DNA of 64,000 nt from Escherichia coli (GCF_044324785.1 NZ_CP172127.1); one strand, 5' to 3'; positions 35,043 through 39,715 are shown, counted from the first letter of the stretch. The notes: a model not told the origin generated them from the letters alone. Numbers and translations: made by a program.

Positions 35043-35848
35043 GTAACGCTACCACCGGAAACGCCAATTTCGCTGGTGGTAGCCCAGACAGGGTTGGCGT
35101 AACCGGCTCGAATGGATACCGGCGCTTCCGAAGAAGCCCCTGCCTGAGCCACCATTGATTGACAAAGGCGCTGGATTATACACCAACGCCCAAAAAATGG
35201 GTGAGTCAGACCTACGACATAAAAAAAGACGCTCGGCGCGTCATATGTCGCCATTCGATTTACCAGGACGCCAATCCCGGCACCCGTTTTATGAGGTGCC
35301 TTATAACCATAAACCGTGTTGCCGCATAACGGCAAGCTCTTTTTTATGGACTCCGAAAACTCGCTATTGGAAGCACCAGATGCACAGTACATCGCGCTCA
35401 TTTCGTTAACGTCACGCACGTGGACGAATGTTTTTGTGGAGTCACTACACGAGCGGAAGACATCATCTACGACCAGAAATTTTCTGGCGCAGCCGCTGAC
35501 CTTCTCAACGCTAACACCATCGACCGTAATTTCTGACATAGTTAAGGCATCCGCTCCCACCACCAGAAAATGATAAACTTTGCTTGTATCTGCTGTATTA
35601 ATGCCAGACTTTGCTGTCATATTGCTGGATTTTGGCGACATACCTGCCAGTGAAAATGTCTTCTTCTGGACGGTTAGCATTTGTTAACCTCCGCGAACTC
35701 CTTCATGAAACGTGCCAGCGGTTGTACGCATGGCGATTGATACCCGTCGCGATAAAACGTCACTCGGTTGTGAGACACGCTTTCGACAGTAACGAGTGCT
35801 CCGTGGGCATCTTTGTAGCGTTTTTGAGGTTGTGGTGTTCCTGTCGGC

Positions 35849-36694: not shown

Positions 36695-37126
36695 TTAGGC
36701 GGCGTTAAACGCGTCCGGGTAGAGTTTCAGAATGTCGGCAATTTCCTGCTGAGAAAGTCCGTTGTGATCATTTATGTTCGCAAGATGGTTAACATGAGTG
36801 ATCACTTTCAGAACATCACCACGGCAGGAGAAACGGTAGCGGAGGTGTGTTCCGATACCATCAGGATTCTTTTCGTCGATACGCTCCAGAATGATTCCAA
36901 GCTGGCGTTCTAACTCTGTTGCATAGTTACGACCAGAAGACAGACGGCAGTAGCGAAGAATGTCATTTTCTGTCCATCCCTCTATACCAGTACGCAGCAT
37001 ATAGACTCTGGCACGATGTTTTTTCGGTGTGCGCTTTGGTGCTTGAAGGGATTTTTTCAGGGGCGTAACATCAGACACGCGAATATCTGAATTAGCCGCC
37101 TGTAATGGGCGGTTTTTCTTTTCCAT
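36695..37126 (-). CDS. hypothetical protein
   Basis: 143-aa ORF; start overlaps alpA-like stop by 1 nt. Confidence 0.4.
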   Translation of the reverse strand: MEKKNRPLQAANSDIRVSDVTPLKKSLQAPKRTPKKHRARVYMLRTGIEGWTENDILRYCRLSSGRNYATELERQLGIILERIDEKNPDGIGTHLRYRFSCRGDVLKVITHVNHLANINDHNGLSQQEIADILKLYPDAFNAA

Positions 37127-37329
37127 CAGGCCACCTTCCCGCGGCGTTCTGCCAGCCAGTTGTGAATCTCAACCGCATCAAACGCAGTTATTTTTTCTCC
37201 CAGCTTTACTGGACGTGGTAGTGAACCGTTTCTTACTTTACGGTCGATGGTGGATACACTAACGCCCAGCAATTCAGCCAGGCGAAAGCGTCTGATATAG
37301 CCTTTTGTAGGGATAGTGTCGATGTTCAT
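37126..37329 (-). CDS. alpA: AlpA-family phage transcriptional regulator/excisionase-like protein
   Basis: 67-aa protein with HTH LAELLGVSVSTIDRKVRNGSLPRPVKLG typical of AlpA/Xis-like proteins; near the integrase. Confidence 0.75.
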   Translation of the reverse strand: MNIDTIPTKGYIRRFRLAELLGVSVSTIDRKVRNGSLPRPVKLGEKITAFDAVEIHNWLAERRGKVA

Positions 37330-37435
37330 GATTCCCGTAACCTCTTAGCGATAGTTGTTGCTTCGTTACGAGAAATCTAGCTGTATAGATATACAATGAA
37401 AAGGTACTGTAATTTTGCAGTACCTCTATAGTAAG

Positions 37436-38386
37436 TTAACTATCCACTTTGCCATTTGCCGCAGATCGTAGATGTTTAAGAATTACATCTTCATTAGTTA
37501 TCATAAGTGGTGGAACTTCGTCTAAATGACGAACAAGACAGTCACGCCACTTCTCAGGGCTTATTTCTTTCCTTTCTCCCCTGCATTCATTTGGATACTT
37601 ACTAAGTATATAAATTGCAGATTTTAATAGTTTCTCCCTATTGACTGCGTACCGTTCGGCACGTTTATTAACTTTTAGCGTATTTATATCATTGGATAAC
37701 TTGTTTGCGGATGGTTTGTGCATGGGTCTGTCATAAATATATTTTCCTCCATTTATAAGAAGATTGTATTCATAGTCAGTTATATACATTTTGTTTCGGC
37801 TTATTTCATACCAGCCGTCAATATAAAAAGCTCCGATTTCATAATTATTCGATTTGCTAAACTCGTCACATCTCGGAGGTATCAGTTCGCATACAGAGAT
37901 CTCCCAATCATCCCATTCTGATAGCTCCCGCTCATCGTTATCTATGAACGCAGGCGGAATTGCTAATAGACCGCTCCATCTTTCGATATCTCTTTCATCC
38001 TTCCCAACATTGTATCGCTCTATAACTGAGAAATGTTCTGATTTGTATGAAAACCTCATAAAATACATATAGTTATCGCTATTTTTATAATCAAGTGATG
38101 ATAAGCCATATGATTCGAGATTATCTGCCTTATTGCTCAGATCAAGGAGATAATTCTCATGTGCTGCTTTTGTATCTATATGAAAAATACTATCTGTTTC
38201 AACTTTAAGTAATTCTGGCTCGGCATCTTCATTTTTTGGGTAATGGTAAAACAATTCAATAGGTGGAATTTTTATACATATTTCTAAAACCCCAATTGCT
38301 GCATAGTGTATTAAATCGGATACTTCACATCCGGCCAGTTTGGCTGCTTTATCCAAAGAATAATATTTATGCGCAGGTAATTTCAT
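37436..38386 (-). CDS. hypothetical protein in an AT-rich segment, int-proximal cargo; possible N-terminal HTH
   Basis: 316-aa ORF with Lys/Tyr/Asn/Glu-rich composition; N-terminus YSLDKAAKLAGCEVSDLIHYAAIG resembles an excisionase-type HTH; no catalytic motif recognised. Confidence 0.5.
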   Translation of the reverse strand: MKLPAHKYYSLDKAAKLAGCEVSDLIHYAAIGVLEICIKIPPIELFYHYPKNEDAEPELLKVETDSIFHIDTKAAHENYLLDLSNKADNLESYGLSSLDYKNSDNYMYFMRFSYKSEHFSVIERYNVGKDERDIERWSGLLAIPPAFIDNDERELSEWDDWEISVCELIPPRCDEFSKSNNYEIGAFYIDGWYEISRNKMYITDYEYNLLINGGKYIYDRPMHKPSANKLSNDINTLKVNKRAERYAVNREKLLKSAIYILSKYPNECRGERKEISPEKWRDCLVRHLDEVPPLMITNEDVILKHLRSAANGKVDS

Positions 38387-38404
38387 TATGAATCTTTCCT
38401 CTCA

Positions 38405-39658
38405 TCATGCTCTGATTGGCGTTACGTTGTAGTCTTTTCCGCTTTCCAGTGCCACCAGCAGATCTGCCCACTGTGCTAGTGCTGCTTTACGCTCATCAAA
38501 ATACTGATGACGGTTATAAATCCCCTCTACGCCCTTAATGCGATGATTGAGGCATCGTTCCGCCACGACAGGATCAACACCCAATGCTGCTAAATGAGTA
38601 CGTGCGGTGCGTCGGAAGTCGTGAATCGTGAAATTAGGCACATCCGGAATTTCGGCGCGAACCTTAGCCAGTGCTACGGGTAAAGTGCTTTCCTGAATAT
38701 GTGGGATCATTCTGTTTTGCATCTTCCTGGCCGGAAGCACCCATGCGCTATTACATGAAAAGGTGTGTAGCTCTCTCAACCATTCAACGGCTGGGGAAGG
38801 TAGAGGTATATCAATAGGGTCTCCGTTTTTGCTGCGTTCTTCCGGCAAATGCCATACCGCACCATCTAAATCAAACTCTTCCCATCGTGCGGCGCATAAC
38901 TCCATCTTACGAACGCATAGTGCCAGCAATAGTTTAAATGTCAGTTCGTTTTGGCGGCTGAATCCTTTTGCGGTGCGCATAGCCTCGAATAGTCTGATAA
39001 GCTCATCGCGAGTTAGCCAACGGTCGCGGGAAACCTCTTTACCACCAGCATCAGATACTTCAAACGCTGAACAAGGGTTTATCTCCAGAGCGTGGCGTTT
39101 TATCCCATAGTCAAAGATACGGCGTGTCCAGCGCAATACATCTGTTGCTATCGTTGGTGCTCCTCGGTCAACGATACCTTTCAACATGTCGTCAATGTGG
39201 CGTGGCTTAACGTCCTCTACCTTCATATGCCCAATGCAGGGGTTAATATCCTTATCAATTCTCCGGCGAAGGATATCGGGATGTTTCCATCTCGGAAGTA
39301 TCTGGCGCTCGAAGTATTCGGAGGCCAGATCTGAAACACGCATGGCGTTTTTCTCAGCCTCCATTTTTGCCAGTGCTTCAGCTTTTCGTTCCTGTTTCTC
39401 TGCTGCTACGTCATAGCCAAGAGCAACTCTGGCTGACAGCTCTTTTGCTGTTTCTCTGGCTTTTGATAGTGACAGTTCGGAGTAAGAGCCTATAACCATA
39501 GCCCGCTGCTTTCCTGCGAGCTTATAGCGGAATCGCCAGAACGGGACTGTGTAGTTTTTGGGGTAGCAAATATAAAGGCCGTTGCCGTCTGCCTTGCCAT
39601 CAAATCTGTCTCCCGCCTTTATCCATGCGCGGATCTGCATATCTGTGAGTTTTGGCAT
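38405..39658 (-). CDS. int: P4-type tyrosine integrase
   Basis: 417-aa translation from MPKLTDMQIRAWIKAGDRFDGKADGNGLY; C-terminal catalytic region with HDFRRTARTHL and Tyr near the C-terminus; listed ORF start over-extended. Confidence 0.85.
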   Translation of the reverse strand: MPKLTDMQIRAWIKAGDRFDGKADGNGLYICYPKNYTVPFWRFRYKLAGKQRAMVIGSYSELSLSKARETAKELSARVALGYDVAAEKQERKAEALAKMEAEKNAMRVSDLASEYFERQILPRWKHPDILRRRIDKDINPCIGHMKVEDVKPRHIDDMLKGIVDRGAPTIATDVLRWTRRIFDYGIKRHALEINPCSAFEVSDAGGKEVSRDRWLTRDELIRLFEAMRTAKGFSRQNELTFKLLLALCVRKMELCAARWEEFDLDGAVWHLPEERSKNGDPIDIPLPSPAVEWLRELHTFSCNSAWVLPARKMQNRMIPHIQESTLPVALAKVRAEIPDVPNFTIHDFRRTARTHLAALGVDPVVAERCLNHRIKGVEGIYNRHQYFDERKAALAQWADLLVALESGKDYNVTPIRA

Positions 39659-39715
39659 TGCGAATACCTGAATATCGAATATGGGTGTGTACATAAAGCA
39701 ATGTACATGAAAGTC

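What the first reader, a model, noticed from the sequence alone, without database searches (positions are those of the whole stretch)
37436..38386. AT-rich 316-aa ORF of unknown function between int and alpA (int-proximal cargo slot)
The gene's composition is sharply more AT-rich than the flanking integrase and alpA, indicating separate acquisition. It occupies the integrase-proximal variable position where satellites and prophages often carry defence or fitness cargo. The N-terminus resembles an excisionase-type HTH, and the rest is rich in Asp/Glu/Tyr/Asn with no motif I recognise.
Basis: partly seen in the sequence, partly recalled or inferred. Interest (0 to 1): 0.6.

Follow-up and report, generated by a model that had tools for sequence, protein, structure and literature searches.

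The report
Integrase-coupled satellite gene of unknown function
The AT-rich 316-aa gene is real and intact, and belongs to a widespread uncharacterised family that sits directly after the integrase in helper-phage-dependent islands, so it more likely helps control the island's excision switch than being random cargo, though its function is unproven.

Summary
The ORF (37436-38386, minus strand, 316 aa) and its low GC (0.33-0.37 vs ~0.49) are confirmed. It lies in a ~17 kb EcCIMP1-like phage satellite next to yicC. It starts 18 nt after the int stop codon and is followed by a hairpin, so it looks like an int-ORF operon.

No Pfam, PHROG, NCBIfam, PADLOC, PDB or phage-genome match exists. It does belong to a large unnamed family (118 clusters at 50% identity; 175 AlphaFold-DB matches).

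The predicted architecture has three parts:
- an Xis/AlpA-like winged helix;
- a fast-evolving acidic domain with no PDB fold match;
- a basic C-terminal helical domain under strong purifying selection.

In all 23 related loci fetched, the family gene directly follows int, beside integrases only 25-99% identical. In fis-type islands 11 members overlap int by 4 nt, the "iolg" arrangement reported as essential for excision in Vibrio PICMI satellites.

A ~1.15 kb cassette carrying the ORF was recently exchanged between diverged islands (98% vs 82-85% identity).

Best reading (0.42): an int-coupled nucleic-acid-binding factor of the int/alpA switch. Main rival (0.30): anti-phage cargo.

The parts
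37436..38386 (-). Slot gene: 316-aa ORF (WP_000775207.1-type), a member of an unnamed family confined mainly to Enterobacterales
38252..38386 (-). Residues 1-45: N-terminal winged helix (beta-alpha-alpha-beta), Xis/MerR/AlpA-like by fold, roughly neutral charge (pI 6.7)
37727..38251 (-). Residues 46-220: fast-evolving acidic alpha/beta domain (pI 4.5, net charge -18) with no PDB fold match. Only G139 (GLW) and I202 (DLxIT) are nearly invariant
37667..37726 (-). Residues 221-240: low-confidence, probably flexible linker
   Evidence: pLDDT 51-53
37439..37666 (-). Residues 241-316: conserved basic helical domain (pI 9.3; signature ERxAxNRE..L..AI..L..YP.EC.G..K..S..KW...H..E.PPL), generic winged-helix/FF/SWIRM-like
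38387..38404 (-). 18-nt int-to-ORF spacer containing a Shine-Dalgarno (GAGAGGAAAG); no room for a promoter, which implies co-transcription with int
   Evidence: the Rfam int-alpA RNA present here in relatives is absent
38405..39742 (-). Tyrosine integrase inserted next to yicC (longest ORF; RefSeq annotates the equivalent of 38405-39658)
37400..37427 (-). Hairpin / inverted repeat just after the ORF stop (10-bp stem, -13.6 kcal/mol, z=-3.3, then UUUUCAUU): a terminator and/or protein-binding palindrome. Relatives have GGTACAGT-N5-6-ACTGTACC
37334..37372 (-). Inverted repeat CTCGTAAC...GTTACGGG enclosing the alpA Shine-Dalgarno; conserved with alpA, not with the slot gene
37126..37329 (-). alpA-like HTH regulator/excisionase (67 aa)
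37300..38445 (.). Recombination cassette: a block 95-100% identical to strain XJ5.2, flanked by DNA only 67-90% identical

Best explanation
The ORF is a functional gene of the satellite's own control module, not passive cargo. It is made together with the integrase while the island is dormant. It belongs, by position and coupling, to the class of 'integrase-overlapping / integrase-contiguous genes' (iolg/icg) described in Vibrio PICMI satellites, where the one tested member was reported as required for helper-triggered excision.

Proposed mechanism:
- The conserved basic C-terminal domain binds nucleic acid. The candidate site is the palindrome immediately downstream, just ahead of alpA.
- The fast-evolving acidic middle domain sets specificity, probably by contacting a helper-phage or competing-element protein.
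- The protein thereby licenses or gates the Int/AlpA excision-induction switch.

Shown: the gene is intact; its family, domain layout, selection pattern, synteny, coupling to int and cassette exchange. Inferred: nucleic-acid binding, the binding target, any role in excision or alpA control, and the partner of the variable domain.
For: Synteny: in 23 of 23 related loci the order is int -> family gene, co-oriented and usually followed by alpA, with integrases from 99% down to 25% identity at yicC, tRNA, prophage-late-gene and other sites.

Unbiased sample of fis-integrated islands: 33 of 36 int-bearing stretches (not de-duplicated) have one 216-315-aa ORF directly after int. Nineteen of these are family members, and 11 of those overlap int by 4 nt; two more overlapping members were found.

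Operon structure: 18-nt gap with a Shine-Dalgarno, and a hairpin after the stop codon.

Architecture typical of a regulator: winged helix, then a variable domain, then a basic helical domain.

Selection: the C-terminal domain has dN 0.15-0.38 with synonymous sites saturated, so the protein is selected, not the DNA.

Control region: palindromes lie between the slot gene and alpA. The palindrome changes with the C-terminal type while AlpA stays identical (L026 vs L027).

Precedent: delta-iolg abolishes PICMI115 excision and transfer, and int/iolg in trans restores it; iolg/icg genes form 13 unrelated families of unknown function (PMC10803314). How helpers switch on alpA is stated as unknown in PMC6092414 and PMC10803314.
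Against: The PICMI evidence is one element. iolg alone was not used for complementation, and iolg overlaps the int stop codon, so an effect through int is not excluded.

The same slot holds at least two unrelated families, and alleles swap between otherwise identical islands with identical AlpA. That pattern is also what a defence hotspot looks like.

The N-terminal winged helix is not basic (family median pI 6.1), which is unusual for a DNA-binding Xis. The palindrome is degenerate in some loci with a canonical C-terminus (L005, L011). Its association with the C-terminal type could simply reflect physical linkage.

Some Gram-negative PICIs appear to lack a slot gene or carry a different one: EcCIMP1 has a ~67-aa gene there (PMC11773190), and for EcCICFT073 I infer from the paper's ORF numbering that int and alpA are adjacent.
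Confidence: 0.42

Rival explanations
1. Anti-phage defence or superinfection-exclusion cargo. This would be a single-gene immune system expressed from the int promoter in the dormant island. The variable acidic domain would sense a phage component and the conserved C-terminal domain would act as the effector or signalling module.
For: PICIs are reported to carry immune systems at their 5' or 3' ends (PMC11364771, citing Fillol-Salom 2022). Allelic replacement occurs in otherwise near-identical islands, and the ORF was recently exchanged as a cassette. The middle domain is hypervariable. The composition is AT-rich. The related island EcCIMP1 gives helper superinfection immunity with no recognised defence system (PMC11773190).
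Against: There is no PADLOC hit even at E<=0.1 and no recognisable enzymatic, toxin or membrane effector. The slot always holds one gene of similar size, rather than the mixed single- and multi-gene systems typical of defence hotspots. Translational overlap with int is frequent. The EcCIMP1 slot gene is unrelated to this family. The Fillol-Salom 2022 systems could not be compared because the paper is not held.
Confidence: 0.3
2. Master repressor of the satellite, analogous to SaPI Stl. The protein would sit on the palindrome ahead of alpA and keep it off until a helper-phage protein binds the variable domain and releases it.
For: The gene would be expressed in the dormant state with int. It has HTH-like domains at both ends. 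A palindrome lies immediately upstream of alpA. Its allelic diversity resembles lambdoid immunity regions and Stl diversity. No sigma-70-like promoter was found ahead of alpA. A global repressor in Gram-negative PICIs is described as unclear (PMC6092414).
Against: The island already has a P4-type RNA immunity system: C4 RNA at 35072-35159 and isrK at 35222-35299. In PICMI115, loss of iolg abolishes excision rather than making it constitutive (PMC10803314). The gene is co-directional with alpA, unlike stl/rpr. The AlpA promoter in EcCICFT073 is activator-dependent rather than repressed (PMC6092414).
Confidence: 0.12
3. Recombination cofactor in the strict sense. This would be an Xis-like architectural protein that binds att arms with Int and AlpA to form the excisive intasome.
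For: The N-terminus has an Xis-like winged helix. Relatives show translational coupling or overlap with int. The authors of PMC10803314 propose an Int-IOLG-AlpA excision complex.
Against: The family is decoupled from integrase and att type. The same C-terminal domain occurs beside integrases 25-30% identical. Conversely, 99%-identical integrases with the same att site carry alleles whose N-terminal regions are only 16-32% identical, or an unrelated protein. The nearby palindrome is about 2.3 kb from the att core.
Confidence: 0.1
4. Non-functional remnant or conserved pseudogene.
For: There is no annotation, no known domain, a low GC content, and dN/dS of only 0.44 against the closest diverged allele (18 differences, so low statistical power).
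Against: The frame is intact in 40 E. coli genomes. There are 61 clusters at 90% identity and 118 at 50% identity, mostly of similar length (260-380 aa). The AF2 model is confident (pLDDT 89.4). The C-terminus is under strong purifying selection.
Confidence: 0.02

Closest known systems
iolg / icg genes of Vibrio PICMI satellites (PMC10803314)
   Same: The gene lies between int and alpA on the same strand and is contiguous with int (18 nt here); 11 relatives in fis-type islands overlap int by 4 nt. It has unknown function, very high sequence diversity, and would be expressed with int in the dormant element.
   Different: Homology to any of the 13 PICMI families is untested. The host is Enterobacterales rather than Vibrionaceae. 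The element is ~17 kb with P22-type late genes and a P4-type CI RNA, not a 6-kb minimalist island. No genetic data exist for this family.
EcCIMP1, an E. coli PICI mobilised by the P22-like phage Kapi1 (PMC11773190)
   Same: The island plan is the same: int, slot gene, alpA, antirepressor, primase, P22-type DNA-transfer/ejection proteins, and PerC (in the SA186 copy of the island).
   Different: EcCIMP1 integrates at tRNA-Thr using a different integrase. Its slot gene (EcCIMP1_002) is a ~67-aa protein mis-annotated as UvrB and is unrelated to this family.
SaPI Stl / PICI Rpr master repressors
   Same: They are int-proximal HTH proteins with highly diverse alleles, thought to recognise helper-phage proteins.
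   Different: Stl is transcribed divergently from the operon it represses and has a Cro/CI-type HTH. Here the gene is co-directional with alpA, has an Xis-like winged helix, and its most conserved part is the C-terminal domain.
AlpA / Xis / Vis / TorI excisionase-type winged-helix proteins (Pfam Phage_AlpA, HTH_17)
   Same: Residues 8-39 have the same beta-alpha-alpha-beta topology, with a weak alignment to the HTH of the neighbouring AlpA.
   Different: There is no Pfam hit. The protein is five times longer, the winged helix is not basic, and there are two additional domains.
PICI 5'-end immune systems (Fillol-Salom et al. 2022, as cited in PMC11364771)
   Same: They occupy the same general position in Gram-negative PICIs and are expressed from the dormant island.
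   Different: There is no sequence match to PADLOC models. A comparison with the FS_* systems was not possible, and no effector domain is recognisable.

Membership tests
iolg/icg class (PICMI) | Gene located between int and alpA, on the same strand | tested here: met
iolg/icg class (PICMI) | Overlaps int (1, 4 or 13 nt) or is contiguous with it | tested here: met
   18-nt gap in the window; 11 family members overlap int by 4 nt in fis-type islands, plus 2 more
iolg/icg class (PICMI) | Sequence homology to one of the 13 described families | not testable with these tools
   The supplement lists locus tags only. No Vibrionaceae loci were recovered
iolg/icg class (PICMI) | Required for helper-induced excision | not testable with these tools
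   Needs genetics
Gram-negative PICI / EcCIMP1-like satellite (the element) | int, alpA and primase co-oriented; ~10-20 kb; no full set of phage structural and lysis genes | tested here: met
Gram-negative PICI / EcCIMP1-like satellite (the element) | Induced and packaged by a helper phage | not testable with these tools
   Shown only for EcCIMP1 (PMC11773190)
AlpA/excisionase family (Pfam PF05930 / PF12728, TIGR01764) | Significant match to the family profile | tested here: not met
   No Pfam hit at E<=10; no NCBIfam hit; 0 of 146 family members hit
AlpA/excisionase family (Pfam PF05930 / PF12728, TIGR01764) | Winged-helix fold of the Xis/MerR type | tested here: inconclusive
Known anti-phage defence systems (PADLOC v2) | Match to a defence-protein model | tested here: not met
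Fillol-Salom 2022 PICI immune systems (FS_* in DefenseFinder) | Match to those proteins | not testable with these tools
   The paper and the models are not available
Stl/Rpr-type master repressor | Divergent transcription from the repressed operon; Cro/CI-type HTH | tested here: not met
   The gene is co-directional with alpA, and its fold is Xis-like, not Cro/CI-like
Rfam int-alpA RNA (RF02996) | Covariance-model match between int and the next gene | tested here: not met
   Absent from the window even at E<=10; present in 6 of 9 related loci scanned

The most novel reading that the evidence does not exclude
This family, and the unrelated families sharing its slot, would be the missing helper-phage sensors of AlpA-type satellites. 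The protein would be made with Int in the dormant island. It would detect a helper protein through its hypervariable acidic domain and then switch on alpA through its conserved basic domain and the adjacent palindrome. That would make it an activating counterpart of the SaPI Stl repressor. Cassette swapping of the gene would then reprogram which helper phage an island can exploit.
Probability: 0.18. Interest if true: 0.85.

Novelty: new variant of a known kind. Interest (0 to 1): 0.58.

Why it matters
How helper phages switch on Gram-negative PICIs has been stated as an open question since 2018 (PMC6092414) and again in 2024 (PMC10803314). This work defines a large protein family that nobody has named and gives it clear anatomy. 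It occupies the one position next to the alpA switch, is co-expressed with the integrase, and carries a swappable, fast-evolving domain. That gives a concrete candidate, plus a candidate DNA site, for simple genetic and binding tests. If it turns out to be a defence gene instead, it would be a new single-gene system common in Enterobacterales. Either way, the finding also shows that the Rfam 'int-alpA RNA' motif sits upstream of this gene rather than of alpA.

Tried and rejected
**Sequence-based annotation.**
- Pfam, PHROGs, NCBIfam and PADLOC gave no hit for the ORF.
- None of 146 family members hit Pfam. Only phrog_7144 and phrog_13283, both of unknown function, matched some relatives.
- PDB sequence searches, single sequence and profile, found nothing meaningful.
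- tblastn against 50,697 phage genomes found no match.

**Structure-based annotation.**
- Foldseek against AFDB50 returned only 'Uncharacterized protein' entries.

**Searches that fell short.**
- The search for related loci with the broad alignment failed. With the narrower alignment it gave only 4 genome loci.
- The profile search with the C-terminal domain, meant to find fusions to known domains, returned only fragments.
- Two att-pattern scans aimed at Vibrio PICMI loci returned only Enterobacterales fis-type islands.

**Literature.**
- The Fillol-Salom 2022 Cell paper is not held.
- A search for FS_* system names returned unrelated papers.
- The protein accession appears in no paper.

**Ideas rejected.**
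- 'PM1773 family protein' is not the slot gene; it is the gene after alpA.
- C-terminal conservation is not due to a DNA cis element, because synonymous sites are saturated.
- The other slot families are not remote homologues of this family (hhalign probability <4%).
- No att direct repeat of 14 nt or longer was found for the island.

Full report
**1. Observation**

The ORF is real: 37436..38386 on the minus strand, ATG start, 316 aa. Its GC content is 0.325-0.370 in 400-nt windows, against about 0.49 on both sides. Upstream on the same strand is a tyrosine integrase (phrog_1, E=4e-64). Downstream is a 67-aa AlpA/excisionase-type HTH protein. The window is E. coli. The genes belong to a ~17 kb island between yicG and yicC, and the identical island in strain SA186 is annotated as follows:
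- int;
- hypothetical protein (this ORF, WP_000775207.1);
- HTH regulator;
- hypothetical protein (its allele in strain E1316 is annotated 'PM1773 family protein');
- AntA/AntB antirepressor, DUF4222, Ash;
- a TOPRIM/DUF927 primase;
- a 'phage DNA ejection protein';
- PerC.

The late region encodes P22-type ejection and head-morphogenesis proteins. This is the plan of EcCIMP1, an E. coli PICI mobilised by the P22-like phage Kapi1 (PMC11773190). The EcCIMP1 slot gene is a different, ~67-aa protein.

**2. What the protein is**

It matches nothing in Pfam, PHROGs, NCBIfam or PADLOC. It also has no meaningful match to PDB sequences or to 50,697 phage genomes.

It is not an orphan, though:
- 61 clusters at 90% identity match it.
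- 118 clusters at 50% identity match it.
- 175 AlphaFold-DB clusters match its model at E<=0.001. All are 'Uncharacterized protein', from Enterobacterales, Aeromonas, Grimontia and Oceanimonas. One sequence relative is from Chromobacterium.
- None of 146 members hits Pfam.

BLAST shows a mosaic pattern. Many proteins of the same length share only residues ~194-314, or 240-314, at 50-82% identity. Others share only the first ~45 residues.

The AlphaFold2 model is confident (pLDDT 89.4, pTM 0.72) and shows four segments:

| Residues | Feature | Evidence |
|---|---|---|
| 8-39 | beta-alpha-alpha-beta winged helix | |
| ~60-215 | alpha/beta domain | |
| 221-240 | low-confidence linker | |
| 241-311 | helical domain | |

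hhalign lines up the N-terminal segment with the HTH of the island's own AlpA (38 columns, P=0.0017). The probability is only 15%, so I call it Xis/AlpA-like by fold and do not file it as a family member.

Charge is consistent across the family: C-terminal domain median pI 9.25, middle domain 4.47, N-terminal domain 6.06.

**3. Selection**

In a 28-sequence alignment the C-terminal 75 residues hold 17 invariant positions: R250 E251 L253 A257 I258 L261 Y264 P265 C268 R269 G270 K273 S276 W280 E290 R307 N311. In pairwise comparisons that domain has dN 0.15-0.38 while synonymous sites are saturated. Conservation therefore acts on the protein, not on an embedded DNA element.

The middle domain is at 11-16% amino-acid identity in most comparisons. 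Two nearly invariant positions remain, G139 (in a GLW motif) and I202 (in DLxIT). AFDB alignments also span the full length. I read this as one fold evolving very fast, not unrelated inserts.

**4. Context across elements**

In all 23 related loci fetched the order is int -> family gene, co-oriented, and usually followed by alpA. The neighbouring integrases are 99%, 84-90%, 63% or only 25-30% identical to the window's. The elements include capsid-forming PICIs, primase/DUF927 islands and an island embedded in prophage late genes. The last type is explained by PMC10111431.

Every family gene is AT-rich: 0.33-0.42 GC in all 27 loci measured. In 25 of them int is 0.45-0.52; in L005 and L006 int is also about 0.40.

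A sample not selected for the family came from scanning viral contigs for the fis-end attachment repeat. It gave 36 int-bearing stretches, which were not de-duplicated:
- 33 have a single 216-315-aa ORF directly after int.
- 19 of those are family members (profile E from 1e-54 to 1e-18).
- 11 of the 19 overlap int by 4 nt and one by 1 nt.
- Two more overlapping members appeared. One has an N-terminus close to ours but a different C-terminal type, so the end modules shuffle independently.

The slot genes that are not family members fall into a 216-aa family (phrog_30524) and a ~270-290-aa family. Neither is detectably related to ours (hhalign probability <4%).

In E. coli, 336 of 5426 complete genomes carry DNA matching this int-ORF-alpA segment. 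In most listed records where both int and alpA match, the int-to-alpA span is 2.6-2.7 kb. Four slot alleles were seen in otherwise near-identical islands: 316, 321 and 281 aa (family members, E=6e-72 and 5e-43 for the latter two), and 216 aa (not a member; it overlaps int by 4 nt).

**5. Cassette exchange**

Against strain XJ5.2 the ORF is 98.1% identical (dS 0.035). Its 18-nt upstream spacer is identical and its 106-nt downstream spacer differs at two positions. In contrast, int is 82% identical (dS 1.25) and alpA 85% (dS 0.94). A sliding window puts the high-identity block at about 37300-38445.

This is direct evidence that the gene moves as a ~1.15 kb unit between diverged islands.

**6. 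Expression signals**

The ORF starts 18 nt after the int stop codon and has its own Shine-Dalgarno. After its stop codon lies a 10-bp hairpin (-13.6 kcal/mol, z=-3.3) followed by UUUUCAUU. No sigma-70-like promoter was found on the gene strand anywhere from int to alpA.

In relatives the hairpin is GGTACAGT-N5-6-ACTGTACC. It shows compensatory changes (GGTAC/GTACC <-> GGCAC/GTGCC), but usually lacks a U-run. L026 and L027 have identical AlpA and an identical alpA leader, yet differ in both the C-terminal domain type and this palindrome. Family members with other C-terminal types are followed by doubled short palindromes instead, such as CTGGAAnnTTCCAG x2 or GTGATATCAC x2.

I therefore treat the region as a probable protein-binding control region as well as a terminator. 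This is inference only.

A second inverted repeat (37334-37372) encloses the alpA Shine-Dalgarno and travels with alpA.

**7. Literature bearing on function**

- In Gram-negative PICIs, AlpA activates the island cycle. Helper phages induce alpA by an unknown route, and whether a repressor exists is 'unclear' (PMC6092414).
- PICIs are reported to carry immune systems at their 5' or 3' ends (PMC11364771). The primary paper (Fillol-Salom 2022) was not available.
- In PICMI115 that gene is needed for excision and transfer. The authors propose constitutive Int + IOLG together with phage-induced AlpA (PMC10803314).
- Caveat: complementation used int/iolg together, and iolg overlaps the int stop codon, so an effect through int is not excluded.

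**8. Interpretation**

Several features argue that the slot holds a working part of the satellite's control module, not free cargo:
- the slot is almost always filled by one gene of similar size;
- that gene is often translationally coupled to int;
- the protein has HTH-like domains at both ends;
- its conserved domain is basic and under strong purifying selection;
- it sits next to the alpA control region.

I commit to this reading at 0.42: an int-coupled nucleic-acid-binding factor that gates the Int/AlpA switch, with the acidic domain setting specificity.

A strict att-binding cofactor is less likely (0.10), because the family is decoupled from integrase and att type in both directions.

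A master repressor is less likely (0.12). The island already carries a P4-type RNA immunity system, with C4 at 35072-35159 and isrK at 35222-35299. Also, loss of iolg in PICMI115 abolishes excision rather than triggering it.

Defence cargo stays a serious rival (0.30). Allele swapping, cassette exchange, a hypervariable domain and low GC are also what a defence gene would show, and I could not test the Fillol-Salom systems.

A pseudogene is effectively excluded.

**9. Novelty**

The positional class (iolg/icg) was described in 2024 with unknown mechanism. This family, its three-part anatomy, its conserved C-terminal domain, its spread across Enterobacterales satellites and its cassette behaviour are not described in any paper I could find. 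I rate it a new variant of a known kind, of moderate to high interest.

Noticed in passing
window 35072-35159(-) and 35222-35299(-): Rfam C4 antisense RNA (79.5 bits) and isrK (67.1 bits) lie inside the Ash-like ORF region. This is a P4-type CI/seqA RNA immunity system in an island with P22-type late genes. The same pair is present in L005, L009 and L016.
   Followed up: partly
L002 7914-7979, L007 7915-7980, L009 4163-4226, L011 9322-9386, L014 1276-1341, L016 1252-1317: The Rfam 'int-alpA RNA' motif (RF02996) sits in the ~90-nt gap between int and the slot gene. It is an outer stem enclosing two hairpins, then a U-run, then the slot gene's Shine-Dalgarno. So it is upstream of this gene family, not of alpA. 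It is absent from the window, where the gap is 18 nt.
   Followed up: partly
window 42546-43517(+): A 323-aa reverse-transcriptase ORF (YCDD motif) lies between pyrE and slmA. It is absent in strain SA186 and is annotated 'reverse transcriptase family protein' at the same place in strain 500010. It is possibly a retron; the ncRNA and effector were not examined.
   Followed up: no
window 24473-29131(-): Four late genes resemble P22-type ejection/DNA-transfer proteins (701, 473 and 225 aa) and a head-morphogenesis protein (153 aa). This suggests a P22-like helper, as for EcCIMP1 and Kapi1.
   Followed up: partly
window 37334-37372(-): An inverted repeat, CTCGTAAC...GTTACGGG, encloses the alpA Shine-Dalgarno and is conserved across most loci. 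It could sequester the ribosome-binding site or be a protein-binding site.
   Followed up: no
window 20691-21560(-) and 21642-22915(-): A 162-aa ImmA/IrrE-type metalloprotease-like ORF (PADLOC capP, E=5e-25; RmrA-like) lies next to a 125-aa ORF. Adjacent to them are IS transposase ORFs (301 and 136 aa), at or beyond the far end of the island.
   Followed up: no
window 23840-24454(+): A 204-aa ORF on the opposite strand has a weak match to a SieA-like superinfection-exclusion family (phrog_7745, E=4e-4).
   Followed up: no
L005 / L006 (Enterobacter): Here the int-slot-gene island follows terminase, portal and Mu-F-like genes, which makes it a helper-embedded PICI as in PMC10111431. It lacks a recognisable alpA next to the slot gene (Bro-N instead) and ends near an RVT_1 reverse transcriptase.
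   Followed up: no
L025, L028 (E. coli yicC islands); L036, L067, L080, L116 (fis islands): An unrelated 216-aa protein (WP_001059729.1; phrog_30524, unknown function) occupies the same slot and overlaps int by 1-4 nt. In L028 an IS66 element is inserted right after it.
   Followed up: partly
window 36695-37126(-): The 143-aa gene after alpA has no PHROG or NCBIfam hit here, but its allele is annotated 'PM1773 family protein' in some RefSeq genomes. It is conserved (58-83% identity) in many related islands.
   Followed up: no
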